36,084 nt of DNA from Alphaproteobacteria bacterium (GCA_017958895.1 JAGDBT010000087.1:1-36084); one strand, 5' to 3'; positions 4,046 through 36,084 are shown, counted from the stretch's first letter. Numbers and translations: made by a program. The notes: generated by a model not told the origin, from the sequence alone.

Positions 4046-4046
4046 T

Positions 4047-15619: not shown

Positions 15620-15763
15620 CTTGTACTTTTTATTTTTCTCCTGTAATATGTTACAAGATAATAGCTTTTATGCAATCAGTTAAAGTCTTTTTAACACAAT
15701 TTATTTACACTCTATACCATCTGAATGAATAAAAAGAGATTTTCGGGCTTAAAAGGGGACAAA

Positions 15764-16765
15764 ATGAAAAGACTGTTGTTGATTTGTTTCATGATATTGT
15801 TTGTTGCCACGGGAGTAATGGCTTCTAATTTGGTAAAAAAAGAAAGCTATTTATCTACCACGCTCAATGTTGTCGGACTTCCGGATTTTCCTCCTTTTTC
15901 CGAATATATAAAGAACGATCGTGATGCTTATATATTGAAAAGTGCCTTTTTGCAGCCTTTAATTCATGCGGCACAACGTAATGATATAAAAATGAAAACG
16001 GCTGATTTAAAAGATACTCCTGACTTAAAAATGTTGCTGTTAGGAATGAAATCAGGTGATTATCATGTGTTTATCGGCACTTATTCCGACACTAAAATGT
16101 TTGCCGGTCTGGAAATTTTGTATCCGGCCGTAATATCCAACCCCGTTCATTTGATTACTTTGCCGGAAACTCAGGAACAAATCAAAACTTATGCCGACTT
16201 AAAAAACTTGCGCGGTATTGCCTCCAAAAGCGAATATTTCAGTGATTTTGTTTTGCGCAAATTCAAAGAATTAAACATCACTTATGTTGATAATTCTCTG
16301 GAAGCTTATGAAAAATTGATTATCGGAGAAGCAGATTACATGATGGGCGGTCTGTATTATAACAAAATAGCCGCCAGTCAATACGGAGTTAGCGATTTTA
16401 TAGCCTATTCCAAAAAACCTCTTTTCAAAATTCCGCTTTTTCTTTCCTTATCGAAAGAAACCCCTGTTTTATCGGAATATGTACGAATCTTAAAACAAGA
16501 ACTTTCCAAACCGGAATTTGCCACGGAAGTTAAAAATGAAATTATTCGTTTGGTAGGCGAGGAAATTGAAAAAAATGATGGTACGGTTCCGCCTTCTTTT
16601 GCCACAATCATGAGGGAAAAGGCTCAGAGTCAACAAGATTCCGCCGTTGAAGAATCTCCGTTTGAAGAGGATAAACCGCAACAAAATAACGCCATCCGAC
16701 ACGGACGAATCGTAGAACATGAACAACATCAAACAACTTTTGATGAAGCTCTTGACGGTATTTAG
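15764..16765 (+). CDS. Periplasmic solute-binding protein (family 3-like) with an acidic, Q-rich C-terminal tail
   Basis: Start reset to the ATG after AAAGGGGA. Signal peptide MKRLLLICFMILFVATGVMA. The PDFPPFSEY...GDYHVFIGTYSDTKMF...LKNLRGIASKSEYF pattern is typical of SBP_bac_3. Confidence 0.6.
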   Translation: MKRLLLICFMILFVATGVMASNLVKKESYLSTTLNVVGLPDFPPFSEYIKNDRDAYILKSAFLQPLIHAAQRNDIKMKTADLKDTPDLKMLLLGMKSGDYHVFIGTYSDTKMFAGLEILYPAVISNPVHLITLPETQEQIKTYADLKNLRGIASKSEYFSDFVLRKFKELNITYVDNSLEAYEKLIIGEADYMMGGLYYNKIAASQYGVSDFIAYSKKPLFKIPLFLSLSKETPVLSEYVRILKQELSKPEFATEVKNEIIRLVGEEIEKNDGTVPPSFATIMREKAQSQQDSAVEESPFEEDKPQQNNAIRHGRIVEHEQHQTTFDEALDGI

Positions 16766-17443: not shown

Positions 17444-17899
17444 ATGAAAAAGTTATTGATTTTATTTTCTCTTGTTCTTGCTTCCTGTTCCTCCGGAGGA
17501 AAAGGGCAGATTATTTATAACTGGGAACGTGAAAATACCGGAGTAGCCAAATTTTCCCGCGACCATTCGGAATGTTTGCGAAAAGCCGAAGGTTGGTTTC
17601 ATTGGCCGAATATTTCAAACTGGTTTTATTCTGAAGAATATCGTTACAATATTCATGTAAACTGGCATAAAGAAAAGGGAATTTGGGCCAGTTATGTTCC
17701 GCATCGCGGAGCTGATCCGATTTTGATAAATTCCATCCGAGATTCTGCCGATTCAAATCCGCGAGATTATCGTTTGTGTATGGAAGAAAAGGGATATTGG
17801 CATCGCACTTATGACATCCCTTCCGTTACAAACATTTATGTTTATAATCCGCAGAAGCCTTCCGATCGCATTCCGTTTGAAGAGCTTAATTATCAATAG
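17444..17899 (+). CDS. Lipoprotein, unknown function
   Basis: The lipobox LVLASC follows MKKLLILFS. The 151-aa Trp/Tyr-rich mature part has two conserved-looking Cys contexts (HSECLRKAEGW, YRLCMEEKGYW). Confidence 0.6.
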   Translation: MKKLLILFSLVLASCSSGGKGQIIYNWERENTGVAKFSRDHSECLRKAEGWFHWPNISNWFYSEEYRYNIHVNWHKEKGIWASYVPHRGADPILINSIRDSADSNPRDYRLCMEEKGYWHRTYDIPSVTNIYVYNPQKPSDRIPFEELNYQ

Positions 17900-23579: not shown

Positions 23580-24449
23580 TTATTGCATCAATTCTATGGC
23601 TTTGGAAATTTTGCGAATCGAATTAAGTTCAATCTGTCGGACGCGCTCTTTGGAAATATTATAAATCTGGCTCAATTCATCAAGCGTTGTATTCTCATCG
23701 CTCATACGTCTTTTATACAATATATCTTTCTCGCGCGGATTTAATACCGTAATGGCTTTGTAAAACAGTTTTCGACGATAATTCATGGTTTCCCGATAAG
23801 AAAACTGTTCTTCCTGATTCGGTTTGTTATCATAAATAAAATCAATCCATTCGCTTCCGCTTTCCGAATCGTTATTCATCGAAACATTTAGCGATCCGTC
23901 ATGGGCTTTCAGCCGCATATTCATATCCGTAACCTCTTGAATGCTGACATCAAGCGTATCGGCAATTTCTTTTAACACCTCGCTTGAAAGTTCCCTGTCA
24001 TCATTCAACTTCAAATTGTTTTTTATCTTGCGCAAATTAAAAAATAATTTTTTTTGCGCTGCGGTTGTGCCCAATTTAACCAAAGACCACGAATTTAAAA
24101 TATATTTTTGCACCGCCGCTTTTATCCACCACAAAGCATAAGTCGAAAAGCGGAACCCTTTATCCGGTTCAAATTTGTTGACGGCATAAATCAGACCGAT
24201 ATTACCTTCCGAAATCATCTCGTTAATCGGCAGGCCGTAACCTTTATAAGTTGACACCACCTTTACTACCAAGCGCAAGTGCGAAGTTATCAATTTATAG
24301 GCTATTTCTTTGTTATGAGTTTTTTTGTATTCAATCGCCAAATTATATTCTTCTTCTTGAGTAAGCAACGGATAGCGACGAATATTTTGTAAATAACGTG
24401 CCAGATTTATCTCCGGCGAAAAGTCAAGTCCGGTAAGAGCAGTTTCCAT
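23580..24449 (-). CDS. rpoH: RNA polymerase sigma-32 (RpoH)
   Basis: RpoH box QKKLFFNLRKIK plus regions 2 and 4 (YKGYGLPINEMISEGNIGL..., ISKERVRQIE). Start set at METALTGL (complement of 24447-24449), 5 nt after AGGAGAA. Two upstream in-frame ATGs (24494, 24482) lack an SD. Confidence 0.9.
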   Translation of the reverse strand: METALTGLDFSPEINLARYLQNIRRYPLLTQEEEYNLAIEYKKTHNKEIAYKLITSHLRLVVKVVSTYKGYGLPINEMISEGNIGLIYAVNKFEPDKGFRFSTYALWWIKAAVQKYILNSWSLVKLGTTAAQKKLFFNLRKIKNNLKLNDDRELSSEVLKEIADTLDVSIQEVTDMNMRLKAHDGSLNVSMNNDSESGSEWIDFIYDNKPNQEEQFSYRETMNYRRKLFYKAITVLNPREKDILYKRRMSDENTTLDELSQIYNISKERVRQIELNSIRKISKAIELMQ

Positions 24450-24549
24450 AATTGTTCTCCTTTGAATGACCGTATCAATCATAAGAACGACCATTCAAAC
24501 TCTCAAGCCGTACTTTGGTTATAAAAACAAACTATCTGTTATATAAAAA

Positions 24550-25542
24550 TCAGATTCCGGATGATAATTTTTCCAATAACTCGGTCATATCCGCCGGTAA
24601 TTTTGAATCAAATTGCAAAAATTCTCCGCTCCGCGGATGAACAAACCCCAGCGTTTTGGCATGTAGTGCCTGACGAGGAAAGGTGTTTACATAAGTTTTA
24701 AGTTCCGGCGGCAAAGCCAATTCGGATTTTTTATTTTTAACATAAAGTTTATCGCCTATCAGCGCGTGTCCTTGCGTGCTTAAATGCACTCTTATCTGGT
24801 GTGTGCGACCGGTTTCCAAATTACATTGTACCAATGAAGCGAATCGGCCGAAAATTTGCAATGTTTTATAATTGGTTGCCGCAAATTTGCCGCCTTTTTC
24901 CACTATAGCCATTTTTTTGCGATCAAACGGGCTGCGCCCTATATTTCCTTCAATACGACCGCTTAATTCCGTAAAAACGCCATAGATGACCGCCTCATAA
25001 GTCCTTTCCGAAGAATGCTCGGCAAATTGCGCACTCAAAAAGTTATGGGCCGTATCATTTTTTGCCACCACCAGCAAACCGCTGGTTTCTTTATCTATGC
25101 GATGCACAATTCCCGGACGCTTTACACCGCCGATGCCGGAAAGCTTATCGCCGCAGTGATACAGCAAGGCATTTACCAAAGTACCGGAATATGCTCCGGC
25201 CGCCGGATGTACGGTCATCCCTGCCGGTTTGTTTACAACAATTAAATCATCATCTTCATAAACAATATCCAAAGGAATATTCTCGGCTATAGGTTCTGCC
25301 TCTTCGGCCGGCGGAATCGTTATTTGATAGCAATCACCTTCTTTAACCCTAAAAGAATTGTCGGCAATTACTATTTCTTCGCACTCCACATTGCCGCCGG
25401 AAATAAGTTTTTGCAATCGGGAACGCGACATATCGGGCAACCTTAAAGACAAAAACTTATCCAAGCGCAGATTTTTTTCTGCCGCCGCAACTTCTGAAAC
25501 TGTAATCACTTCTTCCGTCATTTTTTTAACATTATTAAGCAT
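24550..25542 (-). CDS. rluD: 23S rRNA pseudouridine synthase, RluA family (RluD-like), with an N-terminal S4 domain
   Basis: Has an S4-like LRLDKFLS...SRSRLQKLI, the catalytic HRIDKETSGLLVVAKN, and LHAKTLGFVHPRSGE. The start is ambiguous between 25542 and Met8 at 25521. Confidence 0.88.
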   Translation of the reverse strand: MLNNVKKMTEEVITVSEVAAAEKNLRLDKFLSLRLPDMSRSRLQKLISGGNVECEEIVIADNSFRVKEGDCYQITIPPAEEAEPIAENIPLDIVYEDDDLIVVNKPAGMTVHPAAGAYSGTLVNALLYHCGDKLSGIGGVKRPGIVHRIDKETSGLLVVAKNDTAHNFLSAQFAEHSSERTYEAVIYGVFTELSGRIEGNIGRSPFDRKKMAIVEKGGKFAATNYKTLQIFGRFASLVQCNLETGRTHQIRVHLSTQGHALIGDKLYVKNKKSELALPPELKTYVNTFPRQALHAKTLGFVHPRSGEFLQFDSKLPADMTELLEKLSSGI

Positions 25543-25630
25543 ATTTTATAAAATATCTTTTATTTTTGCATCATAAGAGTTATTATATCCAAAAGCAAGA
25601 AGAGTTTGCAATTCACGCAAGGAGATATCT

Positions 25631-26587
25631 ATGAGTGAAGAAAATAATGAAATTATCAGCGCTGATGACGATTTTGAAAAACTTTTGCAAAGTTTTATAA
25701 ACTCCAACATAGACGATGCAGATGAGAAACCGGCTAAAAAAACCGAAGAAGTTCCGGAGCCGAAAAAGGATGCGAGCAGCCCTTCTTTGAGCGAAGAAGG
25801 AAAACGGCAAAACGAAGAAGCCTCCAGACTCTTTGAACAAGAATTGGCAAACACTTTTGCCGAAGTACGTAATGATATAGAAAGAGAAAAAAACACTCCG
25901 ACCTTAAAATCCGAGGAATCGGAGTTGGCACAAGCGTTTATTAACTATAAAACCTCTATTGAAAAATTGACAACCACGCATTTGCAACAAAAATTTGAAA
26001 CCAAATTTTTCATTGATTTGCTTTATCCGAATTATAAACCGAGTGTCGGAAGAATTTTATCTTATGACTTGGCTGCCGGTTGGACTGCTTTGTGCAAAAT
26101 GTTTCCGAATGATGTCGGAAAATTTCCGGTAACCTCTTCCGACGAAGAATTTTTAAATTTTGCCGAAAAATTACGCGATCAGGATTTGCAATTGGCCGTC
26201 ATTTCTTATGTGGAAATTTTGATTGATATGGAAGGCTGTGAAATAACCTATCAGATGAAATTGGCCAAATATCAGGAACAGCATATCAAAAAAATAATGT
26301 ACGAAGAATATTTGGCTCGCAAAGAAAGGCAAAAACGTTTTATTGAAATCTTGCAAACCAAAAACTTTCCGATAGATGTTGAAAAATTGATAAGTAATTA
26401 TTTTCGGGTGGCCCAGAAAGACGCTGATGGCGCTTATAAGGCTTTAATCACCAATCCGGCTGTTTTTGCGCCTATTGATTTCAGCAAAATTAAACCTCGC
26501 TTTTTCGGATTGGTAAAAGTTTCGCCAAAAGACGGCATTCGCGTAAACAAAGAAATCGGTGATTTCTTGAAAAATATTAAAGCTTAG
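25631..26587 (+). CDS. Hypothetical soluble protein, 318 aa, acidic N-terminal third; first gene of the T4CP cluster
   Basis: ATG 6 nt after AAGGAG. No TM helix or signal peptide. The N-terminal ~100 aa are D/E/K-rich, followed by a globular-looking region (FFIDLLYPNYKPSVGRILSYDLAAGWTALCKMFP...). No family recognised. Confidence 0.6.
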   Translation: MSEENNEIISADDDFEKLLQSFINSNIDDADEKPAKKTEEVPEPKKDASSPSLSEEGKRQNEEASRLFEQELANTFAEVRNDIEREKNTPTLKSEESELAQAFINYKTSIEKLTTTHLQQKFETKFFIDLLYPNYKPSVGRILSYDLAAGWTALCKMFPNDVGKFPVTSSDEEFLNFAEKLRDQDLQLAVISYVEILIDMEGCEITYQMKLAKYQEQHIKKIMYEEYLARKERQKRFIEILQTKNFPIDVEKLISNYFRVAQKDADGAYKALITNPAVFAPIDFSKIKPRFFGLVKVSPKDGIRVNKEIGDFLKNIKA

Positions 26588-26601
26588 AGGAAATTTTATT
26601 G

Positions 26602-26630
26602 TAGACAAAAAAGTTTTTTTGTGTTACATT
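26602..26630 (+). promoter_or_regulatory. Candidate extended -10 promoter for the 683-aa gene
   Basis: TAGACA (26602-26607), a 17-nt spacer ending in TGT (26622-24), then TACATT (26625-26630). An AAGGGAG SD lies 8 nt before the ATG at 26666. Pattern only. Confidence 0.4.
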
Positions 26631-26665
26631 GAGTAAAAAGAATACGGTTAAAGGGAGTATTTACC

Positions 26666-28717
26666 ATGGCAGAGATAGTGGATGACAAAACAGCAAAAAC
26701 CCCTACTGAAGAAAAAACAACCTCAGCGGGTGATAAGTTTGACCTGTTCTTAAAAGAACTGCAAAAAGCCGAACCCGACATGGAAATCATCAAAGATGGT
26801 CTGAAGAATTTCGGTACTATGAGCTTGTCTGAAACCCAAAAAGAGAATTTTATGAAAGCTTTGTATCCGGATTTGACATCTTCTTCTTTATCTCAAGGTT
26901 TTGAAGATGTTTCTCGCTTAAAGACCGTTCTCAATGCTGTTGTTGAAATACAAAAAGAAGACGAGCTTATTAAAGACCGGTTTATTAAATTAAATGCCGG
27001 CAACGACACCGTTGTTTCGGCTGAGCCTTCCGTAAGCGATGAGACGATTAAAAGTATTTTGGCTCCCGAGGGCGGAAAAAATGCTTTGGATACCTTAATC
27101 ATAAACGCTTATGCCGCAGATTTTAAGAGTGATAAAATAACCGATCCGGAAACTAGGGAAATTCTGAAAAATAATAAAAGCAATATTGATGAAACCTTAA
27201 AACTTTTCGCTCAAATAAAATCTCCCGTTTTACAAGATTTGCTGGAAACCAGTCGCAACGGTGAATATAAGGCTATCATCAAGAATCCTTATTATTCCGA
27301 GTCCGTAACTTCGTTTATCAATTCCGCGGAAGCCCATCACGAAGACGAAGGTGTTACTTCCGTGGGCGGAATTCCGGAAACCAAGGACGGTGTATCCATC
27401 GCTCCGGGCGAAGCTCCTGCCGCCGTGACCATTGGTGAAAAAGAAGCAGAAGACAAAAATATAGCTAACATAGAACCGGGACCTAAAGATAATTCCAAAG
27501 AAAACTTTAAGCCGGAGATTGTTCGTGAACAAGATATCATCAAGTATATGTTTGAAAAATGGTTTTTGGAATTTATGGTTTCCGGTACAATCAATATGCT
27601 CAATAAGGTAGTAAACGGCGCCGTAAATTATTTGGCTGAACACCTGGAAATGCCGGGCGGCTCGCATCCGGAATATGTTACAGCAAACACCGCTTCTGCC
27701 AAATATTTGCAAAAAACAACCAAAAACTTAGAAAACTCCTGTGACGAATTTGTAAATCCGCAGAATCGTTTCTATAAGGCAATGTATAAATGCTTAACCC
27801 ATAATGCCGAAAAAAATGTAGATTCTTGGAATATTCCGAATGTTGACGGTCAACCTTTGTTTGACTTGGCAGATAAACATGACCGCGACATGATGATTAA
27901 ATTCAAAAGAGCGTATGAGGCGAATCCGACCAAATTCAAAGAACAGTTAAAGGCCTTTGACCAGTTTGTTCAATCAGATTCTAAGCAAATTAAAAACATG
28001 CTCAAAGTGGCTGCTAAATTGGCTCTGGTACAGCATTTGTCGGCGAATATAGATAAAGATTTCGGTCCGCAAGATGAAGCCAGCGCCTCAACCAGAATGT
28101 TTGCCATTGCCGATGATCTGCATAAGAGCATGGTAAGAATAACCATGCAGGTTGAAAAAGACTATCGTCTGCAAAAAGGGCTCACGCCTGATGAAGAACT
28201 CGGTAAGGACGCCAAAAAAGAAGTAGAAACCAAAGCTCAGGTTGCTACAATGGAATATATACAACACTTAACCGATGCCGCTAACAACACGCACGATAAT
28301 TTGAAACAATATTACAAATCCGTAACCGACCACGACAAACAAAAGTATAAAACGGAAGTATCAAACGGCAATATGCAACTTGACAGCTTACTGGATGGTA
28401 ATTTTGAATTTTCTTCCCTCAAAAAAGCTGACGGCAAACCGATGTCTTTAAGAGAACTGGCTGCCGATGATGCTCGTGCCGCACGTATTGAGGAAATGTA
28501 CACCGGTCTGATTAAAATAGATGCCGGCGCCAATGAAACCTCAAAAGAAGCTAATGACAGAAGAAAAGAAAGCTTCAAAAAAATGATGGAAAGCGGAGAA
28601 TTTTCGCGCAAATCAGATGTAAAGGAAGTTGTCAACAAGGTTCAAAAAGAACAAAAAGCCATTCATTTATCTGATTTATTGACAAGATCATCCGCCGGCT
28701 CGGGAATGTTAAAATAA
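26666..28717 (+). CDS. Hypothetical soluble protein, 683 aa, K/E/D-rich, largely helical-looking
   Basis: Long uninterrupted ORF with a good SD. No TM helix or signal peptide and no catalytic motif I recognise. Its stop overlaps the next ATG (TAATG). Confidence 0.6.
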   Translation: MAEIVDDKTAKTPTEEKTTSAGDKFDLFLKELQKAEPDMEIIKDGLKNFGTMSLSETQKENFMKALYPDLTSSSLSQGFEDVSRLKTVLNAVVEIQKEDELIKDRFIKLNAGNDTVVSAEPSVSDETIKSILAPEGGKNALDTLIINAYAADFKSDKITDPETREILKNNKSNIDETLKLFAQIKSPVLQDLLETSRNGEYKAIIKNPYYSESVTSFINSAEAHHEDEGVTSVGGIPETKDGVSIAPGEAPAAVTIGEKEAEDKNIANIEPGPKDNSKENFKPEIVREQDIIKYMFEKWFLEFMVSGTINMLNKVVNGAVNYLAEHLEMPGGSHPEYVTANTASAKYLQKTTKNLENSCDEFVNPQNRFYKAMYKCLTHNAEKNVDSWNIPNVDGQPLFDLADKHDRDMMIKFKRAYEANPTKFKEQLKAFDQFVQSDSKQIKNMLKVAAKLALVQHLSANIDKDFGPQDEASASTRMFAIADDLHKSMVRITMQVEKDYRLQKGLTPDEELGKDAKKEVETKAQVATMEYIQHLTDAANNTHDNLKQYYKSVTDHDKQKYKTEVSNGNMQLDSLLDGNFEFSSLKKADGKPMSLRELAADDARAARIEEMYTGLIKIDAGANETSKEANDRRKESFKKMMESGEFSRKSDVKEVVNKVQKEQKAIHLSDLLTRSSAGSGMLK

Positions 28718-29199
28718 TGAAAAAATTTTTGCATTATATTTGCTTTATTGTTTTCGGCCTTATCTGGATTGTGGCTTTAGCCTTGTTATTCAGGTCGGTT
28801 TTTATTTTAACCAATCGGGTTGATATTCTTTCGCCGAAAACCTATCGCCTGCTGTCTGCTTTCTGGAATCACGGCGGCGTTTTGCGTGCCAAAGATTTAA
28901 TGATGTTCTTGGGAATAATTATATATTTTCCTCTTTGCTGGTACGGACTTCGTAAGCTTTATCGCTTTAAATATCTGAATATTTTATCCGTTCCTTTGAA
29001 TTGGATTGCCAATTACGGTGCCGATCATTACAAAACACCGAGTGTAAACATAAAAAATCTAAAAGTCGAAGAAAAGAAAACCTTAGAGCAAATCGTGCAG
29101 GAACGCCTGGACAAGGAAAAAAAGAAACAGGCAAACGCGCAACCTCAGGATTTGCGAAAAAAAATTATTGAACAAATTGAAGAAAATAAAAATTTATAA
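28717..29199 (+). CDS. Small two-TM membrane protein with a charged coiled-coil tail (160 aa)
   Basis: TM1 is ICFIVFGLIWIVALALLF and TM2 is MMFLGIIIYFPLCWYGL. The tail is EEKKTLEQIVQERLDKEKKKQ. The N-terminal 80 aa align without gaps to the N-terminus of the next gene product. Confidence 0.6.
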   Translation: MKKFLHYICFIVFGLIWIVALALLFRSVFILTNRVDILSPKTYRLLSAFWNHGGVLRAKDLMMFLGIIIYFPLCWYGLRKLYRFKYLNILSVPLNWIANYGADHYKTPSVNIKNLKVEEKKTLEQIVQERLDKEKKKQANAQPQDLRKKIIEQIEENKNL

Positions 29200-29267
29200 T
29201 CACTTTTTTAATAAATTGCGGATTATAAATATGAGATAGAATTGGGATAATAACGCGGAGTGAACAT

Positions 29268-30707
29268 TTGAAAGCCTTTTTGGTCTTTTTGAGAATTATC
29301 ATCGTCGGTTGTCTGTGGGGAATTGTCTTCACGGAAGGTATTCGTGTTATTATGCTTTGCAATTGGCATTTTGATATCTTTTGGCCTGACCACTGGCGGC
29401 AGGCAATTGCTTTGTGGAAAGCCGGTTGGGTGGTCCGTGCGCCGAAAGAATGGGCTTTTGTGCTTTTGATTATTACCTTTATTCCGATGCTTATTACCGG
29501 CTGGTGGACTTTAAGTTTGGTTTCGTGGGAAAAGATTATCTATAATATCATCACATTCCCATATACTCTGTATTGCAAATTGGTTAAAACACCGGTTAAT
29601 CTTATTACCACCAACAATCGTTACGGTGTTACAAAACGCAAGTCTTATAAACAGATTCGCCCGACTGCCATCAACACTTTGCGCGTTCCGATTTCCGATT
29701 ACGGAACTACCGCACCGACACAAGCTCCGGCTTTATCGCCTGCTCCGAGCTATACCACATCTTCTTACTCTTCTCCGTCAACGAGAGTTAATGATAAAGT
29801 GAAGAAGACTGATGTGTCGGCCACAATCGACCATGCTTTGTTCAAATTTGACGACGATGACGATGATTTTGATTTGGATATCGATTCTTTTGAAAAGGCC
29901 AGCGCCGTTAAACCGAAACGTCAGGAAACCAAAAAATCCTCTCCGAAATACGATTTTGATGATGAGGAAGAAGATGCACCTAAAAAATCCAGAAACACTC
30001 GTCGTAAAAATTACGAAGAAGACGAAGATGATGATGATGAGGGTTTCGAATATGAAAAAACTTCGCGTCGTTCACGCACTGATGAAAAATCCAATAAACG
30101 CGCGACTAAAGACGAAAACACTTCGCGTAATCATGAAAAAGCCGATACAAAAAAGAATCGTCGAGAAGTTTCGGAAAATAATGAAACATCCCGAAGCACT
30201 CAGGGACAATACGGTCCGGTGTATGAAGCCTTATCTCAAAAAGGTTATGATATTATCACCAATGTTACCGTAAATGATACTTTGATAGATTTTGTCGGTG
30301 TTTCCGAAGGCGAAATCTGTTTATGTCTTGTTGATAAAGAATCCGGTGATTGGTTGGCCGATGAAGAAATGTTCAACGGCGAAGAACCTCTTTGGTTCTC
30401 CGAAAACAGCCATCGCATTTCTCCGGTTTGCAAATTAAATAAGGTCGGCGGTGTTATTAAGTCGGCACTCGCTTCTGAGGAATTTCAACAAAAAATATCG
30501 TCCTTTGTGGTAATCCAAATGGCCAATATTATCAATGCCGACGATATGTTTGATGTTTGGAATGAAATGAACATAAATGTAACGCGTATCAACCGCGGTT
30601 CTCCAAAAGAAATTCGTCTGTTTTCCAAAACTCTCAATGAGGCTGACGGACATCTCGGAAAGGCCGATATTGAGCGCTTGACCAACCTGCTGAAAAGCCT
30701 GAAATAA
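29268..30707 (+). CDS. Membrane protein (479 aa): two-TM module, charged disordered linker and a NERD / PD-(D/E)XK-like C-terminal domain
   Basis: TTG start 7 nt after GGAG, supported by alignment of MKAFL... to MKKFL... of the upstream paralogue. Residues ~145-312 are low complexity (S/T/P, then poly-D/E alternating with K/R). Residues ~313-479 read GPVYEALSQKGYDIITNVTVNDTLIDFVGVSEGEICLCLVDKESGDW...ISPVCKLNKVGGVIKSAL...ISSFVVI. Confidence 0.6.
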   Translation: MKAFLVFLRIIIVGCLWGIVFTEGIRVIMLCNWHFDIFWPDHWRQAIALWKAGWVVRAPKEWAFVLLIITFIPMLITGWWTLSLVSWEKIIYNIITFPYTLYCKLVKTPVNLITTNNRYGVTKRKSYKQIRPTAINTLRVPISDYGTTAPTQAPALSPAPSYTTSSYSSPSTRVNDKVKKTDVSATIDHALFKFDDDDDDFDLDIDSFEKASAVKPKRQETKKSSPKYDFDDEEEDAPKKSRNTRRKNYEEDEDDDDEGFEYEKTSRRSRTDEKSNKRATKDENTSRNHEKADTKKNRREVSENNETSRSTQGQYGPVYEALSQKGYDIITNVTVNDTLIDFVGVSEGEICLCLVDKESGDWLADEEMFNGEEPLWFSENSHRISPVCKLNKVGGVIKSALASEEFQQKISSFVVIQMANIINADDMFDVWNEMNINVTRINRGSPKEIRLFSKTLNEADGHLGKADIERLTNLLKSLK

Positions 30708-30716
30708 GGGGATATC

Positions 30717-32942
30717 ATGTCATCAGAGCGCGGAGAAGAATGGAAAGAATATGACAAAGCCGTAAGGTGGATGCTTATCACTTTTGCAATTTGTTTGGTT
30801 CTCAGCATTTTGCTGTTTATTTTTGCCATGCCTATTTCTCACCTCATCAGACACGGTGTTTCAAAGGAATCGGTTGATGTGGCCAAAAAAGCCACAAAAC
30901 TCATATTTTCCGACTCCTCTTATTTGTTCGGTCTGTATAAAGTGTGGTTCAACAAAATATTAATCGGCAACCACGGAAGCTCCGCTCTGTGGATGTGGAT
31001 TCCTTTGTTGCCGTTTTTGATTATTCCGTTCGGGCTGATTTTCAGTGCCATGTTCTGTCCGTATAAATTCCAAATCAACTATCACGGTCAGGCTAAAGTG
31101 GCTGATTTGCGCGATGTTAAAAAGATGCCGTTATTGGGATTTGACGGTTTCTGTCAGGTTGTGGGGAAATTCCACGGCAGATTTTTACTCTTAAAAGAAA
31201 CTCTTTCAACTCTTTGCTGTGCACCTCCTGGTACCGGTAAAACCGCCAGCGTGGTTATTCCTACCATTTTCCACTCCGAAAAACTCAGTTTAGTCATCAA
31301 CGACCCGAAACCGGAATTGTGTTTCAGTACTTCCGGCGCTCGCGCTAAGGTCGGACCGGTATTCATAATTAACTGGGGTGCCGAAGATAATCCGAGTGAA
31401 GGTATTTATTATCCGAGTTGGAATCCGCTTTCTCCGAACTGTATTCCGGAGCAAGGGCCGGATCGTGATATGTACGTCGACTCCATGTGCAACATTTTGG
31501 TTGAAGATCCGAAAGGCGGTGCCGATCCTCACTGGTCACAAACCGGCCGTGCGGCTCTAACCGGTTTTATTCAATTTGTGGTTTCAAAATGCGAGCGCGC
31601 CAGAGCCAACGATTATTTTATCGGCCGCATTTATGAAGGAAAACTCGACGACAAAGATAAAGAGGTTTTGGAAGGCTATTATATGGATATGCGTGATCCG
31701 AATGCTCCGCGTGCCATCCAAAATCTGAAAAATAATACACTTACCATGGAAAATTATCTTCCTATCGGTACTTGGAATTTGCTTCCTTCGCGTTGGATGG
31801 GCCGTGAAGCCAGTATTGCCATGATTATGGAATGGATTACGGAAGCGCAAATTAACGCCGCTCATGAAATTCAGCGCCGTTTGGATGAAGGTGATCAAAT
31901 GGCCGCTATGGCAGACCCTACGCACGATATGTTGGAAGAAGCCATTAAAGAAGCTCGCAATTTCGGCTATGCGCAACGTGCCGTTACCGAATTGAGCCAG
32001 CTCAGCAACACTCCTGATAAGGAACGCGGTTCAATTCTTTCTACGGCTTTTGCCGGAATTAATGTATTCAAAAACCAGGCCGTTAAGGCGCGTACCAGCT
32101 TTTCAGATTTGTTGTTCAAAGATTTGCGCGGTATGAAAGATCCGGTTACCGGCGAATGGAAACCGATTTCCGTTTATCTTTCGGTTAACCAGGTTGATGC
32201 TCGCGCTTTAGGCGTTATCAGCAGTACCTTTATTGAGCTGATGTCTTCATACCTTATTTCCAACCCGCCGAATCATGTCAATCGTACCGATGGCAAAATG
32301 GGACCGTTCCCGGCTCTGTTTGTTTTGGACGAGTTTCCGCAAATGCCGAAAATGAAAGCTATTATTGACGGTCCGGCCGTAGGTCGTGGTCAAAAAGTTT
32401 CATACCTGTTAATCGGACAAGATTTAGGGCAAATATCCGGTAAATACGGTAAAGATGATTTGGAAACCGTAATTTCTACCACGGCGTGCAAGGTTATCTT
32501 ATCGCAAAACAACGAAGTTACCGCCCAAAGATTTTCCAAGATGATAGGTAATAAAACTGTTCGTATTTCTTCTTTCTCACGTACGGAAGGCAGTTTAGGT
32601 AAGGACTTTAACCCGCTTGCTAAAAACGTTAACTATCAGTTGCAGGGAACGCCGGTAATCAGCTCCACACAGCTTTTGAGCTTGCCGATGTTAAAACAGG
32701 TGGTTTTAATGCAAAGTCATATTGACCGTCCGATTATTGCCGATTCTCCACGTTGGTATTTGGATAAACAGATGAAAAAAATGGCCTCTATTCCTCCTTG
32801 TCCGAATGTTCCGGATTGGATTGTGGCACAACGTGAAGATATCAATGATGATATGTTAGCTAAACTCGGCATTGAATACGGAAACGAAGAGACTAACGAC
32901 AACTTTGAAATTGACTCGGAAACATCTGCTACCGAAGCCTAA
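30717..32942 (+). CDS. virD4: TraG/VirD4-family type IV secretion coupling protein (T4CP), 741 aa
   Basis: Two N-terminal TM helices, then HGQAKVADLRDV. Walker A is APPGTGKTASVVIPT (31221-31244), followed by NDPKPE. Walker B is LFVLDEF (32316-32333). The GQDLGQISGKYGKDDLETVISTTACKVILSQNN block is typical of the family. Acidic C-terminal tail. Confidence 0.82.
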   Translation: MSSERGEEWKEYDKAVRWMLITFAICLVLSILLFIFAMPISHLIRHGVSKESVDVAKKATKLIFSDSSYLFGLYKVWFNKILIGNHGSSALWMWIPLLPFLIIPFGLIFSAMFCPYKFQINYHGQAKVADLRDVKKMPLLGFDGFCQVVGKFHGRFLLLKETLSTLCCAPPGTGKTASVVIPTIFHSEKLSLVINDPKPELCFSTSGARAKVGPVFIINWGAEDNPSEGIYYPSWNPLSPNCIPEQGPDRDMYVDSMCNILVEDPKGGADPHWSQTGRAALTGFIQFVVSKCERARANDYFIGRIYEGKLDDKDKEVLEGYYMDMRDPNAPRAIQNLKNNTLTMENYLPIGTWNLLPSRWMGREASIAMIMEWITEAQINAAHEIQRRLDEGDQMAAMADPTHDMLEEAIKEARNFGYAQRAVTELSQLSNTPDKERGSILSTAFAGINVFKNQAVKARTSFSDLLFKDLRGMKDPVTGEWKPISVYLSVNQVDARALGVISSTFIELMSSYLISNPPNHVNRTDGKMGPFPALFVLDEFPQMPKMKAIIDGPAVGRGQKVSYLLIGQDLGQISGKYGKDDLETVISTTACKVILSQNNEVTAQRFSKMIGNKTVRISSFSRTEGSLGKDFNPLAKNVNYQLQGTPVISSTQLLSLPMLKQVVLMQSHIDRPIIADSPRWYLDKQMKKMASIPPCPNVPDWIVAQREDINDDMLAKLGIEYGNEETNDNFEIDSETSATEA

Positions 32943-33840: not shown

Positions 33841-36084
33841 TCACAATTCCTTTACATTCAAAACACCGCTAATTGCCCTAAGTTCCGACATCAACGCCCC
33901 GTTATCCAAAGCATAACCGTTTTTCAATTCTATTCGCACATCCCAATCGGCTAATTCCGGCTTCAAATAAATTTTATAAGGTCCGTAATGCTCATGCGCC
34001 AAACATTCTCTGATTTTGCGAGCCGCACTCGGCGCATTAAGCTCAATCACCAAACCTTTGGAATTTTCCGTAATTTCTTCATCTAAAGTCTTAATTGCGT
34101 TATACATTATGCGCGGAGGCGCATCTTCCGCCTGTTGTTCGATTTTTACTCTCACATAAAGCGGCAATCCGCTCTCCAAACTTCTTTCGCAACTTTTGAG
34201 CATATCCGAAAAAACAAACCCCTCATATGACGAAGAAGTATCCGACAATTTTAATAAAACAAACGGTTTACCCGTCTTACCCATTTTCTTTTGACACGAC
34301 TGAACACAACCCGCCAAATTCGCCATTATAACATCGCCCGGTTTTATGCCCTTTACCGCTTCGGTATACGAGGTTATTCCCAATCTCTCCATGCTGTCTT
34401 TATAAACATCCAACGGATGCGCCGACAAATAAAAACCGATGGCTTCCGCTTCGTTTTGCAACCGTTCCAAAGTCGGCCATTCTTCCGTATCGCGAATTTT
34501 TACTTCCGCCCCCAACTCCTGAACTCCGAACAAAGAGGTTTGAGAACTGTTTTTCATTTCGCAATCGGCCGCCATATGACGCAATATATTCTCAATATTT
34601 TCAAACAAACGACGGCGGTTATTATCAAGACAATCAAAAGCGCCGGCCTTTATTAAAGCTTCTAATTGCTTGCGGTTCATAAATTTTATATCAACCCGAT
34701 GAATAAAGTCCGATAAACTGCGGAATTTGCCGTTTTTATTGCGCTCGGCCACAATCTCATTCATATTACTTTCGCCAACTCCTTTAACTCCGGCCAGCGC
34801 AAAACGAATATTGCCGTCTTCCACCGAAAACAGTGCCTCGGATTCATTTATGTCCGGAGGCAAAACCTTAAAGCCCATTTTTTTGACTTCGTCGGTGTAA
34901 AAAGCTAATTTATCCGTATTCGCAATATCAAAATCCATAACCGCGCACATAAATTCCACCGGATAATGAGCTTTTAAATAAGCGGTCTGATAAGAAATAA
35001 GTGAATATGCTGCCGCATGTGACTTATTAAATCCGTAAGAAGCAAATTTTTCCATCTGGTCAAAAATTGTTGCCGCAACCGCCGCATCTATACCGTTTTT
35101 AATAGCGCCTTCCGTAAACAATTTGCGCTGAACAGGTATTTCGTCACGCAGTTTTTTACCCATAACTTTACGCAATTTATCGGCACCGCCCAAGGTATAT
35201 CCGCCCAGCACCTGAGCAATTTTCATAACCTGCTCCTGATAAACCATAATGCCGTAAGTTTCATCGAGAATAGGCGCCAAATCGGGATGAACATATTCTA
35301 TTTTTTCTTTACCGTGCTTGCGGTTTATAAAGGTAGGAATATTTGCCATCGGTCCCGGACGATATAAAGCAATAATAGCGATTAAATCTTCAAAACGGTC
35401 CGGTTTTATTTGTTTCATAACATCGCGCATACCGCCGGATTCAAATTGGAAAACCGCACTCGTATCGCCTCTTTGCATCATTTCGTAGGTTAAAGTATCA
35501 TCCAAAGGTACTTCGGCCATATTGAGCTCTATGCCATGAATTTTTTTCACCCAATCAACCGCACAATTGATTACCGTTAAAGTTTTTAAGCCTAAAAAGT
35601 CAAATTTAATCAGGCCAGTTTCTTCCACATATTTCATGTCATATTGCGTAACCGGCATATCGGCGCGCGGATCTTTATACAGCGGCACCAACTCGTCAAG
35701 CGGACGGTCGCCGATAACCACACCCGCGGCATGCATGCCGGAATTTCTGTATAAACCTTCCAATTGAATGGCTATTTCAAACAATTTATTGACTTGCGGG
35801 TCTTTATCGCGCATTTCCCGCAATTCCGGCACCAACTCCAAAGCTTCAGGAAGAGTCGGATTTTTCCCGTTTTGCCCCGGCGGAATCATTTTTGAAATCC
35901 GATCCGCCTGACTGTACGGCATTTGCAAAACACGCGCCACATCGCGGATTACCGCTTTTGATTGCAACTTACCGTAAGTAATAATTTGCGCCACATGATC
36001 ATGACCGTATTTTTCCTGCACATATTCAATCGTCTTATGGCGGTTTTCCTGACACAAGTCCACATCAAAATCCGGCATGTTTAC
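33841..36084 (-). CDS. dnaE: DNA polymerase III alpha subunit, C-terminal ~748 aa; the 5' end lies outside the window
   Basis: The frame is open to the window edge. It has MPDFDVDLCQ (end of the PHP domain), the palm/fingers region (GMHAAGVVI, FDFLGLKTL, ALYRPGP, FNKSHAAAYS) and a C-terminal OB-fold region. Confidence 0.93.
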   Translation of the reverse strand, partial: VNMPDFDVDLCQENRHKTIEYVQEKYGHDHVAQIITYGKLQSKAVIRDVARVLQMPYSQADRISKMIPPGQNGKNPTLPEALELVPELREMRDKDPQVNKLFEIAIQLEGLYRNSGMHAAGVVIGDRPLDELVPLYKDPRADMPVTQYDMKYVEETGLIKFDFLGLKTLTVINCAVDWVKKIHGIELNMAEVPLDDTLTYEMMQRGDTSAVFQFESGGMRDVMKQIKPDRFEDLIAIIALYRPGPMANIPTFINRKHGKEKIEYVHPDLAPILDETYGIMVYQEQVMKIAQVLGGYTLGGADKLRKVMGKKLRDEIPVQRKLFTEGAIKNGIDAAVAATIFDQMEKFASYGFNKSHAAAYSLISYQTAYLKAHYPVEFMCAVMDFDIANTDKLAFYTDEVKKMGFKVLPPDINESEALFSVEDGNIRFALAGVKGVGESNMNEIVAERNKNGKFRSLSDFIHRVDIKFMNRKQLEALIKAGAFDCLDNNRRRLFENIENILRHMAADCEMKNSSQTSLFGVQELGAEVKIRDTEEWPTLERLQNEAEAIGFYLSAHPLDVYKDSMERLGITSYTEAVKGIKPGDVIMANLAGCVQSCQKKMGKTGKPFVLLKLSDTSSSYEGFVFSDMLKSCERSLESGLPLYVRVKIEQQAEDAPPRIMYNAIKTLDEEITENSKGLVIELNAPSAARKIRECLAHEHYGPYKIYLKPELADWDVRIELKNGYALDNGALMSELRAISGVLNVKEL

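What the first reader, a model, noticed from the sequence alone, without database searches (positions are those of the whole stretch)
25631..32942. Five-gene cluster ending in an orphan VirD4/TraG coupling ATPase, with four partners from no family I recognise
Seen in sequence:
- Five co-directional genes with short or negative spacers: a 78-nt gap holding a promoter-like element, a TAATG overlap, a 68-nt gap and a 9-nt gap.
- The last gene is a TraG/VirD4-type T4CP with intact Walker A and B motifs.
- The window has no VirB/Trb/Dot-Icm apparatus gene, relaxase, integrase, tRNA or flanking direct repeat.
- The block sits between core genes: rluD-rpoH on the left and the dnaE operon on the right.

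Established knowledge: T4CPs normally sit next to a mating-pair-formation or effector-translocation apparatus, or next to a relaxase.

Inference, two readings:
- A stand-alone substrate-recruitment module serving a T4SS encoded elsewhere. The position of the 479-aa membrane protein directly upstream of the T4CP recalls DotM-DotL. The 318-aa and 683-aa proteins could then be adaptors or substrates.
- A T4SS-independent membrane DNA-handling module pairing a translocase-family ATPase with a membrane-anchored nuclease-like domain.
Basis: partly seen in the sequence, partly recalled or inferred. Interest (0 to 1): 0.85.

Follow-up and report, generated by a model that had tools for sequence, protein, structure and literature searches.

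The report
Core-like orphan VirD4 ATPase operon
A conjugation-type "coupling" ATPase has become a fixed, very slowly evolving chromosomal gene in hundreds of gut and rumen Alphaproteobacteria species, where it is always co-encoded with membrane and soluble partners of no described family and has no secretion-apparatus gene nearby.

Summary
Five co-directional genes lie at the stated coordinates with gaps of 78, -1, 68 and 9 nt. The last is a VirD4/TraG-type coupling protein (T4CP; Pfam PF02534, E = 3e-56) with intact Walker A and B motifs.

The block is not a mobile remnant:
- 67 of 71 related species loci with enough flank keep g1-g2-g3-g4-T4CP next to rluD-rpoH. g3-g4-T4CP is kept wherever there is room.
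- The T4CP is more conserved than RpoH, RluD and DnaE.
- No VirB gene lies within about 10 kb in 1.55 Mb of related loci.
- g1 and g4 have no homologue on 72,556 plasmids.

The nearest outside relatives (31-36% identity) are ordinary VirD4s ending virB operons on alphaproteobacterial megaplasmids.

The partners:
- g1 is an all-alpha protein with no fold match.
- g2 is hypervariable.
- g3 and g4 share a paralogous two-helix membrane domain.
- g4 ends in a divergent NERD/restriction-endonuclease-like domain. Its wider family also occurs without a T4CP.

In one subclade a candidate HNH toxin and SUKH immunity pair follows the T4CP gene.

Best reading: a domesticated coupling complex feeding a channel encoded elsewhere (about 0.45). 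Rival: a T4SS-independent machine (about 0.3). I could not test whether a T4SS exists elsewhere in these genomes.

The parts
25526..25554 (+). Promoter-like site (TTAACA-17-TAAAAT) in the 88-nt divergent rluD/g1 spacer. Candidate operon promoter.
   Evidence: 10 of 12 matches; the count of such sites is not above shuffles, so weak. Sequence, with AAGGAGA before the g1 ATG.
25631..26587 (+). g1: a 318-aa soluble protein. It has an N-terminal acidic amphipathic motif (DDDFEKLLQSFI, aa 12-23), a disordered acidic linker, and a conserved all-alpha domain (aa ~95-318) of no known fold.
   Evidence: F15, L18, L19 and F22 conserved; 603 homologues, all unnamed; AF2 pLDDT 76.6, above 90 for aa 100-210; no fold match in PDB or BFVD; absent from plasmids.
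26666..28717 (+). g2: a 683-aa hypervariable, charged, low-complexity soluble protein with no TM helix. Its stop overlaps the g3 start (TAATG).
   Evidence: the positional orthologue is 427-1069 aa and mostly undetectable by tblastn; no PDB relative. (the Gly/Arg tail is the embedded SD for g3).
28717..29199 (+). g3: a 160-aa inner-membrane protein with two TM helices (about aa 5-30 and 60-78) and a basic C-terminal tail. Its membrane domain is paralogous to that of g4.
   Evidence: (hhalign probability 98.7%, E = 3.2e-16 against the g4 N-terminus).
29268..29585 (+). g4 N-terminal Trp-rich two-helix membrane domain (aa 1-106).
   Evidence: many invariant W, E and R residues; helices 2-30, 40-51 and 59-107.
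29832..29897 (+). g4 conserved acidic linear motif (HALFKFDDDDDDFDLDIDSFEK, aa 189-210) inside a roughly 200-aa disordered linker.
   Evidence: H189, F192, D202, D206 and F208 invariant; pLDDT below 50 over aa 114-311.
30201..30707 (+). g4 C-terminal domain (aa 312-479), a divergent NERD/restriction-endonuclease-like fold. The invariant block is GDWLADEE-FN-E-PLWFSE-SH-SPV (aa 360-387).
   Evidence: NERD E = 0.0074, below cut-off; much of the domain above pLDDT 90, but 57 over aa 361-380; alpha-beta-beta-beta-alpha-beta-alpha-beta; top Foldseek hits are R2 RLE, Nt.BspD6I, AF1548, McrC and Can2/Card1; E = 6e-3 to 0.4; 408 representative relatives; signature W362, A364, E366, P374, W376, S378, S385, P386, N423, W431.
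29268..30707 (+). g4 whole gene (479 aa, TTG start).
   Evidence: 767 homologues, all 'hypothetical'; absent from plasmids.
30717..32942 (+). g5: a VirD4/TraG-type type IV coupling protein (741 aa).
30768..31064 (+). T4CP membrane anchor: two TM helices (about aa 18-42 and 92-116) flanking the most variable, presumably periplasmic, loop.
   Evidence: (variable consensus over aa ~45-90).
31221..31244 (+). Walker A motif (APPGTGKT, aa 169-176).
   Evidence: (G172, G174, K175 and T176 invariant, including in plasmid VirD4s).
31614..31772 (+). Clade-specific insertion of about 50 aa in the all-alpha domain (aa ~300-352). It is absent from the plasmid VirD4 relatives.
   Evidence: alignment columns about 500-560; nearly invariant within the clade.
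32316..32339 (+). Walker B motif (LFVLDEFP, aa 534-541).
   Evidence: (D538 and E539 invariant).

Best explanation
The five genes form one operon, inherited vertically in a large clade of uncultured gut and rumen Alphaproteobacteria. It is built around a VirD4-type coupling ATPase that descends from the VirD4 of conjugative virB/virD4 systems.

Shown:
- The ATPase keeps the full T4CP architecture: two N-terminal membrane helices, a nucleotide-binding domain with intact Walker A and B motifs, an all-alpha domain and an acidic C-terminal tail.
- It evolves more slowly than DnaE and RpoH.
- It is always co-encoded with g3 and g4, which share a two-helix membrane domain, and nearly always with g1 and g2.

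Inferred:
- g3 and g4 sit beside the T4CP in the inner membrane.
- g4 holds a cytoplasmic REase/NERD-like domain and an acidic linear motif on a long disordered tether. These act as a substrate- or DNA-binding platform rather than a classical nuclease.
- g1 (an acidic N-terminal motif plus a new all-alpha domain) is an adaptor or a substrate.
- The hypervariable g2 is a substrate or scaffold.
- Together they form a coupling (substrate-receptor) complex. It uses ATP to hand protein substrates, or DNA, to a translocation channel encoded elsewhere in the genome. In one subclade the substrate is probably an HNH-type toxin encoded just downstream.
For: - T4CP identity and intact motifs.
- Descent from virB-operon VirD4s. 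The best plasmid matches are 31-36% identical over up to 93% of the length (E down to 2e-102), against about 1e-20 for most other listed plasmid T4CPs. They sit at the end of virB2..B11-virD4 operons.
- Operon structure (overlap, short gaps, embedded SD, no intergenic terminator-like site).
- Conserved co-occurrence. 67 of 71 loci are colinear, and g3-g4-g5 is present in every locus with room. 405 species genomes carry the T4CP subfamily.
- Purifying selection. T4CP identity exceeds RpoH in 53 of 61 loci, RluD in 61 of 61 and DnaE in 20 of 20.
- g3/g4 paralogous membrane domain. Topology and fold of g4.
- Conserved linear motifs in disordered regions.
- A clade-specific insert in the all-alpha domain (the substrate-binding domain of T4CPs, from my knowledge of the family).
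- A candidate HNH toxin and SUKH immunity pair 3-24 nt behind the T4CP gene in 11 loci.
Against: - No T4SS channel gene lies in the window or within about 10 kb in 85 related loci, and no relaxase domain was found in the window's scanned ORFs. Known T4CPs normally sit beside such genes.
- I could not show that a T4SS exists anywhere in these genomes.
- g1 and g4 are absent from 72,556 plasmids, so they are not conjugation accessories.
- Distant g4-family members are stand-alone housekeeping-context genes with no T4CP. The g4-T4CP link could therefore be only a clade-specific adjacency.
- No physical interaction was tested.
- The HNH assignment is weak (E = 0.23, motif-level only). The SUKH hits are below Pfam gathering scores. 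The pair is absent from the window.
- Conservation above that of DnaE is unusual for a secretion accessory.
Confidence: 0.45

Rival explanations
1. A T4SS-independent inner-membrane machine. The VirD4 ATPase has been domesticated for a near-housekeeping job and works only with g1-g4. One possibility is pumping or processing DNA (or unfolding protein) at the membrane together with the tethered REase-fold domain of g4. That would resemble the HerA-NurA and HerA-DUF4297 pairs of the same ATPase superfamily with a nuclease.
For: - No VirB gene near the T4CP in 1.55 Mb of related loci.
- A fixed chromosomal position between core genes, and conservation above DnaE, RpoH and RluD.
- Absent from plasmids and viral contigs.
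- g4's C-terminal domain has a nuclease-type fold. A HerA-DUF (REase-like) complex appears among its weak fold matches (rank 20).
- The same domain is fused to other NTPases: AAA and Roc-COR.
- The periplasmic loop of the T4CP, where I would expect channel contacts, is its least conserved part.
Against: - As far as I know, no T4CP has been shown to act without a T4SS, and the paper searches found no such report.
- The canonical catalytic positions of g4 are not invariant. D341 and D356 are about 80% conserved, E358 is 53% and K357 is not conserved across the family. Single species have lost D356 or E358.
- g2's hypervariability and the toxin/immunity-like pair fit export better than housekeeping.
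- Absence of a T4SS elsewhere in the genome was not shown.
Confidence: 0.3
2. The adjacency is a historical accident. The g3/g4 (and g1/g2) genes are lineage-specific envelope or housekeeping genes. A VirD4 gene was captured next to them and kept for an unrelated role, such as serving transient conjugative elements.
For: - Distant g4-like genes are singletons among trpS/argS/plsY/dprA and accB/accC, with no T4CP.
- g1 is missing from the block in 4 of 71 loci.
- Synteny of unrelated genes (rluD-rpoH) is equally well kept in this clade.
Against: - g3-g4-g5 is never broken in 83 loci, while both flanks change.
- The g4-g5 gap is about 9-30 nt with an SD overlapping the g4 stop. g2-g3 are translationally coupled.
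- A T4CP that served changing mobile elements would not be expected to be more conserved than DnaE.
Confidence: 0.12
3. An anti-plasmid or anti-phage defence system. A decoy coupling ATPase captures incoming or resident transfer intermediates and hands them to the g4 nuclease-like domain.
For: - A nuclease-fold domain paired with an FtsK/HerA-superfamily ATPase recalls HerA-based defence systems.
- The g4 C-terminal domain also occurs in TPR-Roc-COR-TIR giants, which look like conflict-system proteins.
Against: - No PADLOC hit for any of the five proteins.
- The block is core-like, single-copy, at a fixed locus and slowly evolving in 80 or more species. That is the opposite of the patchy, island-borne pattern typical of defence systems.
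- No neighbouring defence genes.
Confidence: 0.05

Closest known systems
VirD4 coupling proteins of alphaproteobacterial megaplasmid virB/virD4 (MPF_T-like) systems, e.g. Sphingosinicella sp. BN140058 p1, Erythrobacter aureus YH-07 plasmid, Microvirga sp. VF16 pMVF16-3
   Same: Colinear over almost the whole length at 31-36% identity (E down to 2e-102). They share the two-TM anchor, Walker A and B motifs, the TraG-D_C region and part of the N-terminal tail.
   Different: Those genes end canonical virB2..virB11 operons on plasmids, next to topB, primase and Rad52 genes. Here the gene is chromosomal, has no virB gene within 10 kb, carries a roughly 50-aa insert in the all-alpha domain, and follows g1-g4, which those plasmids lack.
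Legionella Dot/Icm type IVB coupling complex (DotL with DotM, DotN, IcmS/W, LvgA)
   Same: A working analogy only. A T4CP is co-encoded with a membrane protein directly upstream that has N-terminal TM helices and a cytoplasmic domain, plus small soluble partners. Acidic motifs could play the role of the Glu-rich signals read by DotM (my knowledge of the system; PMC7251119 was listed but not read).
   Different: No sequence or fold relationship. No Dot/Icm-named model was among the T4CP's NCBIfam hits. The g4 model matched REase-like folds, not DotM. g1 matched nothing. No dot/icm apparatus genes are nearby.
Rickettsiales vir homologue (rvh) T4SS, a vertically inherited T4SS scattered over several chromosomal islets
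   Same: The T4CP is kept as a slowly evolving, vertically inherited chromosomal gene in a reduced-genome alphaproteobacterial lineage, and T4SS genes need not be in one locus (from my knowledge; PMC2653234 was listed but not read).
   Different: As I recall, rvhD4 stays clustered with rvhB8-B11. Here no virB gene accompanies the T4CP and the partners are unrelated proteins.
Xanthomonadales bacteria-killing X-T4SS (VirD4 recruiting toxic effectors with cognate immunity proteins)
   Same: In 11 related loci the T4CP gene is directly followed by a candidate HNH nuclease toxin and a SUKH-family immunity candidate. That is the layout expected for T4CP-recruited antibacterial effectors.
   Different: No virB locus is adjacent. 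None of the proteins scanned against Pfam (g1-g4 and the HNH-like proteins) matched a known effector-recruitment domain, so nothing like the XVIPCD signal that marks X-T4SS effectors (my recollection) was detected. The pair is absent from the window, and the assignments are weak.
NERD domain (PF08378) and other PD-(D/E)xK restriction-endonuclease-fold domains; HerA-NurA and HerA-DUF4297 ATPase-nuclease pairs
   Same: The g4 C-terminal domain has the alpha-beta-beta-beta-alpha-beta core. Its best fold matches are all REase-like. It gives sub-threshold NERD hits at 17.2 bits, and 22.0 bits in a distant relative against a cut-off of 22.1. It is paired in an operon with an FtsK/HerA-superfamily ATPase.
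   Different: The family's invariant residues (W-x-A-D-E ... P-x-W-F-S-E ... S-P ... N ... W) lie in a loop after strand 3, not at the canonical D...(D/E)xK positions. The canonical Lys is not conserved. The domain is tethered to the membrane by a disordered linker of about 200 aa.

Membership tests
Type IV coupling protein (VirD4/TraG/TrwB; Pfam PF02534, PF10412, PF12696) | Significant match to the family profiles above the curated cut-offs | tested here: met
   PF02534 191.6 bits (cut-off 20.1), PF12696 77.2 bits (22), PF10412 64.4 bits (20.5).
Type IV coupling protein (VirD4/TraG/TrwB) | N-terminal two-helix membrane anchor plus a cytoplasmic NTPase with Walker A and Walker B motifs | tested here: met
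   (TM about aa 18-42 and 92-116; APPGTGKT; LFVLDEFP). Invariant.
Type IV coupling protein (VirD4/TraG/TrwB) | Genomic association with a mating-pair-formation/T4SS apparatus or a relaxase | tested here: not met
   No VirB2-B11 homologue (tblastn, E <= 1e-3) in the window or in 85 related loci, 1.55 Mb in all. No T4SS or relaxase domain in the window's 20 other large ORFs that I scanned. The rest of the genome could not be searched.
Curated VirD4/TraG equivalogs of NCBIfam (PRK13897, PRK13850, PRK13876, PRK13880, TIGR02767, conju_CD1115) | Score above the model's curated cut-off | tested here: not met
   the best is conju_CD1115 at 142.8 bits (cut-off 250). VirD4 PRK13897 scores 113.6 bits (cut-off 728). 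The protein belongs to none of the named subfamilies.
Dot/Icm type IVB coupling complex (DotL-DotM-DotN-IcmSW) | Partners homologous in sequence or fold to DotM, DotN, IcmS, IcmW or LvgA | tested here: not met
   No Pfam or NCBIfam hits for g1-g4. PDB profile searches of g4 and g1 were negative. Foldseek of the g4 and g1 models against the PDB returned no Dot/Icm protein.
NERD / PD-(D/E)xK nuclease superfamily (g4 C-terminal domain) | Sequence match to PF08378 above the gathering score | tested here: not met
   17.2 bits against a 22.1 cut-off (E = 0.0074). The distant relative P0486 scores 22.0 bits.
NERD / PD-(D/E)xK nuclease superfamily (g4 C-terminal domain) | Restriction-endonuclease-like alpha-beta-beta-beta-alpha-beta core fold | tested here: inconclusive
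   The AF2 model is confident for most of aa 312-479 (blocks above pLDDT 90; 57 over aa 361-380) and has the expected strand order. Most of the top Foldseek PDB hits are REase-like, but E is only 5.7e-3 to 0.4.
NERD / PD-(D/E)xK nuclease superfamily (g4 C-terminal domain) | Conserved catalytic D...(D/E)xK residues | tested here: inconclusive
   (90 diverse domains): D341 80%, D356 81% (plus 8% E), position 358 is E in 53%, position 357 is not conserved. A BamHI-like D...DxE variant is possible, but single species have lost D356 or E358.
Integrative/conjugative or other mobile element | Integrase, relaxase, flanking tRNA or repeats, patchy distribution, presence on plasmids or viral contigs | tested here: not met
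   No tRNA. The only recombinase is XerC/D-like and 21 kb away. Same chromosomal site in 67 of 71 loci. g1 and g4 are absent from plasmids. The T4CP subfamily is absent from viral contigs. GC content is not distinct from the flanks. Flanking direct repeats were not searched.
Known anti-phage defence systems (PADLOC-DB) | Match of any component to a defence-system model | tested here: not met
   no hits for any of the six proteins scanned (g1-g5 and the 297-aa ORF).
Polymorphic toxin / SUKH immunity cassette (downstream pair in related loci only) | HNH (His-Me finger) motif in the toxin, and a SUKH/SMI1-KNR4 profile match in the next gene | tested here: inconclusive
   H-x14-N-x9-H-x3-H with P-x2-FGG is invariant in 9 sequences. 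It aligns on the HNH motif of the pyocin AP41 DNase, but at E = 0.23. SUKH-clan hits occur in 7 of 9 members (best E = 1.8e-4), all below gathering scores.

The most novel reading that the evidence does not exclude
A conjugation-derived VirD4 ATPase has been domesticated into a T4SS-independent, near-essential inner-membrane machine in a whole order-level clade of gut Alphaproteobacteria. It would work only with four new protein families, one of them a tethered REase-fold domain, to move or process DNA or protein at the membrane. As far as I know, this would be the first coupling protein with a function outside type IV secretion.
Probability: 0.28. Interest if true: 0.88.

Novelty: new variant of a known kind. 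Interest (0 to 1): 0.62.

Why it matters
Coupling proteins are understood only as the substrate gate of type IV secretion and conjugation, and they are usually encoded on mobile DNA. Here one is fixed in the chromosome of at least 405 species-level genomes of gut and rumen Alphaproteobacteria. It is conserved more tightly than the DNA polymerase III alpha subunit. It is wired to four partner families that nobody has described.

There are two main possibilities. One is a new kind of coupling complex, with new adaptors and perhaps toxin cargo in abundant but uncultured gut bacteria. The other is the first coupling ATPase working without a T4SS. Either outcome gives a concrete set of proteins for asking how T4CPs choose substrates.

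The work also defines a broad uncharacterised membrane-tethered NERD-like family: 408 representative clusters at 50% identity.

Tried and rejected
1. **g2 C-terminal Gly/Arg tail as a secretion signal.** G-x0-1-R occurs in the last 8 residues in 37 of 70 orthologues, against 2% of internal windows. Rejected as evidence: the tail coincides with the purine-rich SD of g3 embedded in g2's last codons (SD-like in 50 of 69 loci; g2-g3 gap mostly -4 to +11).

2. **DotM-like identity of g4.** No support from sequence or fold.

3. **g3-like proteins among small ORFs next to plasmid VirD4s** (Microvirga, Erythrobacter). hhalign probability is below 0.1%.

4. **The 297-aa convergent membrane ORF as an inverted copy of the membrane protein that follows the T4CP in other subclades.** No similarity.

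5. **T4CP against solved structures.** No hit with either the single sequence or the 12-member profile, so no PDB-based subfamily assignment was possible.

6. **PDB profile searches for g4, g1, g2 and the SUKH-like set.** Nothing significant.

7. **Literature searches** for orphan T4CPs, NERD plus T4CP, and T4SS in RF32/CAG-239-type gut Alphaproteobacteria. Nothing relevant found.

8. **Context of a distant g4 subfamily through the one metagenome scan.** Only 6 loci came back, none with a T4CP.

9. **Exact-sequence look-up of the window's T4CP.** Not on record.

10. **Tandem repeats in the block.** None of note.

Full report
**1. What is in the window**

- g1: 318 aa
- g2: 683 aa
- g3: 160 aa
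- g4: 479 aa, TTG start
- g5: 741 aa

The spacers are 78 nt, a 1-nt TAATG overlap, 68 nt and 9 nt. SD-like sequences precede g2 (AAAGGGAG), g4 (GCGGAG) and g5 (AAGGGGA, overlapping the g4 stop). No terminator-like site falls in an intergenic gap of the block. The best promoter-like match (10 of 12) lies in the divergent rluD/g1 spacer at 25526-25554, although such sites are not enriched over shuffles. The g5 stop is 3 nt from the stop of a convergent 297-aa membrane ORF, which is followed by dnaE.

The rest of the window is core chromosome: rdgB, rph, aroK, a XerC/D-like tyrosine recombinase, dciA, a dsbA-like gene, atpB/F/F', fba, an ABC transporter, tgt, a DnaJ-domain gene, a parA-like gene, GST, a TolC-RND-MFP efflux set, an rpoH-like sigma factor and rluD. 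There is no tRNA and no compositional break.

**2. The ATPase (g5)**

g5 is an unambiguous type IV coupling protein: PF02534 E = 3.2e-56, PF12696 E = 1.3e-21 and PF10412 E = 1.1e-17. It has two N-terminal TM helices, Walker A APPGTGKT and Walker B LFVLDEFP. It reaches none of the curated NCBIfam VirD4, TraG or TraD cut-offs. It has no sequence-detectable relative in the PDB, even with a profile.

Against 72,556 plasmids, the best matches are VirD4s of alphaproteobacterial megaplasmids (Sphingosinicella, Erythrobacter, Microvirga, Thalassospira). They are 31-36% identical, colinear over up to 93% of the length, with E down to 2e-102, against about 1e-20 for most other listed plasmid T4CPs. Those genes close canonical virB2...virB11-virD4 operons. 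So the protein descends from the VirD4 of virB/virD4-type systems. Relative to them it has a clade-specific insertion of about 50 residues in the all-alpha domain, and a conserved C-terminal NVPDWIVAQREDINDDMLAKLG segment followed by an acidic tail.

**3. Distribution and inheritance**

The T4CP has 1,864 database homologues. The best 120 are all 72-88% identical, and those that carry a source name are from uncultured Alphaproteobacteria. A scan of one genome per GTDB species found 405 species genomes encoding the subfamily. The best 80 are gut, rumen or faecal MAGs, for example Ca. Scatocola faecigallinarum, which NCBI places in Rhodospirillales.

Among the loci with at least 5.3 kb upstream:
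- 67 of 71 show the same order: rpoH, then rluD (both on the - strand), then g1, g2, g3, g4, T4CP.
- The other four have a class I aminoacyl-tRNA synthetase gene in place of g1.
- g3-g4-T4CP is present in every locus that has room for it.

The right flank changes between subclades (dnaE, trkA, ABC transporter, ECF sigma and others). In 34 of the 70 loci analysed, mostly the more distant subclades, a sixth gene precedes g1. This gene, g0, encodes about 93 aa: a signal-anchor plus a small beta-rich domain. It is absent from the window.

Identity to the window's proteins averages as follows:

| Protein | Mean identity |
|---|---|
| T4CP | 78.6% |
| DnaE fragment | 77.8% |
| RpoH | 75.2% |
| RluD | 67.9% |
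| g1 | 49% |
| g4 | 48% |
| g3 | 37% |

The T4CP beats RpoH in 53 of 61 loci, RluD in 61 of 61 and DnaE in 20 of 20. g2 is usually undetectable, although a long ORF (427-1069 aa) always fills its place.

The subfamily is absent from viral contigs. g1 and g4 have no tblastn match on any plasmid. This is a vertically inherited, strongly constrained chromosomal module, not a decaying mobile element.

**4. No apparatus nearby**

I searched VirB2, B3, B4, B5-like, B6-like, B8, B9, B10 and B11 from the Erythrobacter plasmid by tblastn against the window plus 85 related loci (1.55 Mb). Only VirD4 gave hits. Whether a T4SS is encoded elsewhere remains the key open point.

**5. The partners**

- **g1** has an N-terminal acidic amphipathic motif (DDEFEKLLxxFI; F15, L18, L19 and F22 conserved), a disordered acidic linker and a conserved C-terminal domain. 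AlphaFold2 with a 53-sequence alignment gives a confident all-alpha model (pLDDT 76.6, above 90 for residues 100-210). It has no match in the PDB (best E = 0.35) or in BFVD. A PDB profile search was negative.
- **g2** is soluble, charged and hypervariable, with short repeats (TTVNE-like) in some species.
- **g3 and g4** share a paralogous Trp-rich two-helix membrane domain (hhalign probability 98.7%, E = 3.2e-16).
- **g4** continues with a conserved basic KKKSYKEIRP stretch and a disordered linker of about 200 residues. The linker contains an invariant acidic motif (FDDDDDDFDLDIDSF). A C-terminal domain of about 165 residues follows, predicted with blocks above pLDDT 90 and the order alpha-beta-beta-beta-alpha-beta-alpha-beta. 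By the positive-inside rule and the charged linker, this domain is cytoplasmic (inference).

Most of the best Foldseek matches for the g4 C-terminal domain are restriction-endonuclease-like: the R2 retrotransposon RLE, Nt.BspD6I, AF1548, McrC and Can2/Card1. The E-values are only 5.7e-3 to 0.4. Pfam NERD scores 17.2 bits against a cut-off of 22.1, and 22.0 bits in a distant relative.

**6. The g4 family is wider than the block**

A profile search of 1.84 billion representatives found 408 relatives. Most have the same plan: a membrane domain, a linker and the C-terminal domain.
- A few carry the C-terminal domain inside TPR-Roc-COR-TIR giants, or in front of AAA ATPases.
- Across 90 diverse domains the conserved signature is W362, A364, E366, P374, W376, S378, S385, P386, N423 and W431.
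- The canonical nuclease positions are weaker: D341 80%, D356 81%, E358 53%, and no conserved Lys.

So the domain is probably a binding module or a non-canonical enzyme.

A distant subfamily, recovered from metagenomes, is a lone gene between trpS/argS/plsY/dprA and accB/accC, with no T4CP in reach. The g4 family is therefore not obligately tied to a T4CP. Its fusion into a T4CP operon is specific to this clade, or at least I could not trace it further.

**7. A clue to cargo**

In 11 related loci the T4CP gene is followed within 3-24 nt by two genes.
- The first encodes a protein of about 200 aa with an invariant motif: PEN-x-N-x-H-x-K-x-P-x2-F-x-G-x5-N-x2-LI-x-T-x-P-x-H-x3-H. In a PDB profile search this aligns exactly on the HNH motif of the pyocin AP41 DNase, but only at E = 0.23.
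- The second encodes a protein of about 160 aa. Seven of nine members hit SMI1/KNR4 (SUKH) immunity families, with a best E of 1.8e-4, all below gathering scores.

The pair is always at that position and nowhere else in the loci. It is absent from the window. This is the layout of a toxin/immunity cassette, and it points to export of proteins recruited by the T4CP. The assignments are weak, and the subclade is not the window's own.

**8. An artefact avoided**

g2 orthologues, otherwise unalignable, end in a Gly/Arg-rich tail. This could be read as a C-terminal T4SS signal. It is better explained by the SD for g3 lying in g2's last codons. That in turn documents translational coupling of g2 and g3.

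**9. Interpretation**

Shown:
- An operon-like, vertically inherited block.
- An intact, highly constrained VirD4-type ATPase derived from virB-operon VirD4s.
- Four partners of no known family, two of which share a membrane domain.
- A tethered REase-fold domain.
- No apparatus gene within 10 kb.

Inferred:
- The proteins form one inner-membrane complex.
- The acidic linear motifs of g1 and g4, and the insert in the all-alpha domain, mediate recognition.
- g2, and the HNH-like protein elsewhere, are substrates.

I rate the readings as follows:
- A coupling complex that feeds a channel encoded elsewhere: about 0.45.
- A T4SS-independent machine: about 0.30. By analogy with HerA-nuclease pairs, this would be a pumping ATPase working with a nuclease-fold partner.
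- Accidental adjacency: about 0.12.
- Defence: about 0.05. This is disfavoured by the absence of PADLOC hits and by the core-like distribution.

**10. Novelty**

All homologues of g1 and g4 that carry a source name are annotated 'hypothetical protein'. The T4CP carries only the generic family name. Full-text searches found no description of such a module, or of a T4CP acting away from a T4SS.

I class it as a new variant of a known kind: a T4CP-centred module with new partners and an unusual, housekeeping-like evolutionary regime. Interest is moderate to high (0.62). It would rise sharply if whole-genome scans show that the clade has no T4SS.

Noticed in passing
L061, L062, L063, L067, L068, L069, L071, L074, L076, L080, L082 (e.g. 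L061:12226-12849 and L061:12743-13291): A candidate HNH-type nuclease toxin (~185-208 aa) and a SUKH/SMI1-KNR4-like immunity protein (~155-180 aa) follow the T4CP gene within 3-24 nt on the same strand. The pair is absent from the window.
   Followed up: partly
34 related loci, mostly the more distant subclades (e.g. L061:5245-5526, L067:5263-5538): An extra first gene, g0 (~93 aa), lies between rluD and g1. It has an N-terminal signal-anchor helix and a small beta-rich, presumably periplasmic, domain with a conserved DGG-x-DRI motif. It has no counterpart in the window.
   Followed up: partly
P0440, P0456 (1513 and 1565 aa); P0501, P0507: The g4 C-terminal domain also occurs inside giant TPR-[domain]-Roc-COR-TIR proteins and N-terminal to CbxX-like AAA ATPases. 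It therefore looks like a mobile module of conflict- or signalling-type architectures.
   Followed up: partly
L089-L092 (GC 28-32%) and L093-L094 (GC 54%): A distant g4-like subfamily (tail ...ILEKAEIPE) is a stand-alone gene. In L089, L090 and L092 it lies between housekeeping genes (trpS, argS, plsY, dprA on one side; accB, accC on the other). No T4CP is nearby in any of the six loci.
   Followed up: yes
window 28690-28717 and the equivalent g2/g3 junctions in 69 loci: The hypervariable g2 proteins share a Gly/Arg-rich C-terminal tail. It is explained by the Shine-Dalgarno sequence of g3 embedded in g2's last codons.
   Followed up: yes
window 30717-32942 compared with 23580-24494, 24550-25542 and 33841-36078: The T4CP is more conserved across species than the neighbouring RpoH-like sigma factor, RluD and the DnaE fragment. 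This is unusual for a conjugation-family protein.
   Followed up: yes
window 3960-4976 (+): A tyrosine recombinase (Phage_integrase plus Phage_int_SAM_1) lies between aroK and dciA. It is probably XerC/XerD rather than a mobile-element integrase, but it contradicts the statement that the window has no integrase.
   Followed up: partly
L011, L013, L016, L038: In four species the block lacks g1 and the rluD-rpoH flank. A class I aminoacyl-tRNA synthetase gene (KMSKS motif) precedes g2 instead.
   Followed up: partly
L002, L040, L041, L044-L048, L051, L052, L054, L070 (e.g. L002:12220-12981): In another subclade a 240-253 aa multi-TM protein of no Pfam family follows the T4CP gene by 3-21 nt in most of these loci. 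It is unrelated to the window's convergent 297-aa membrane ORF.
   Followed up: partly
L022, L023, L034, L035, L052 (record titles): Contigs carrying this alphaproteobacterial block are titled Bacteroidaceae, [Ruminococcus] gnavus, Eubacteriales or Lachnospiraceae in their assemblies. This is probably mis-binning or mislabelling.
   Followed up: no
window 15725-16765 (+) and 17444-17899 (+): Two further ORFs (346 and 151 aa) in the core-gene part of the window have no Pfam match.
   Followed up: no
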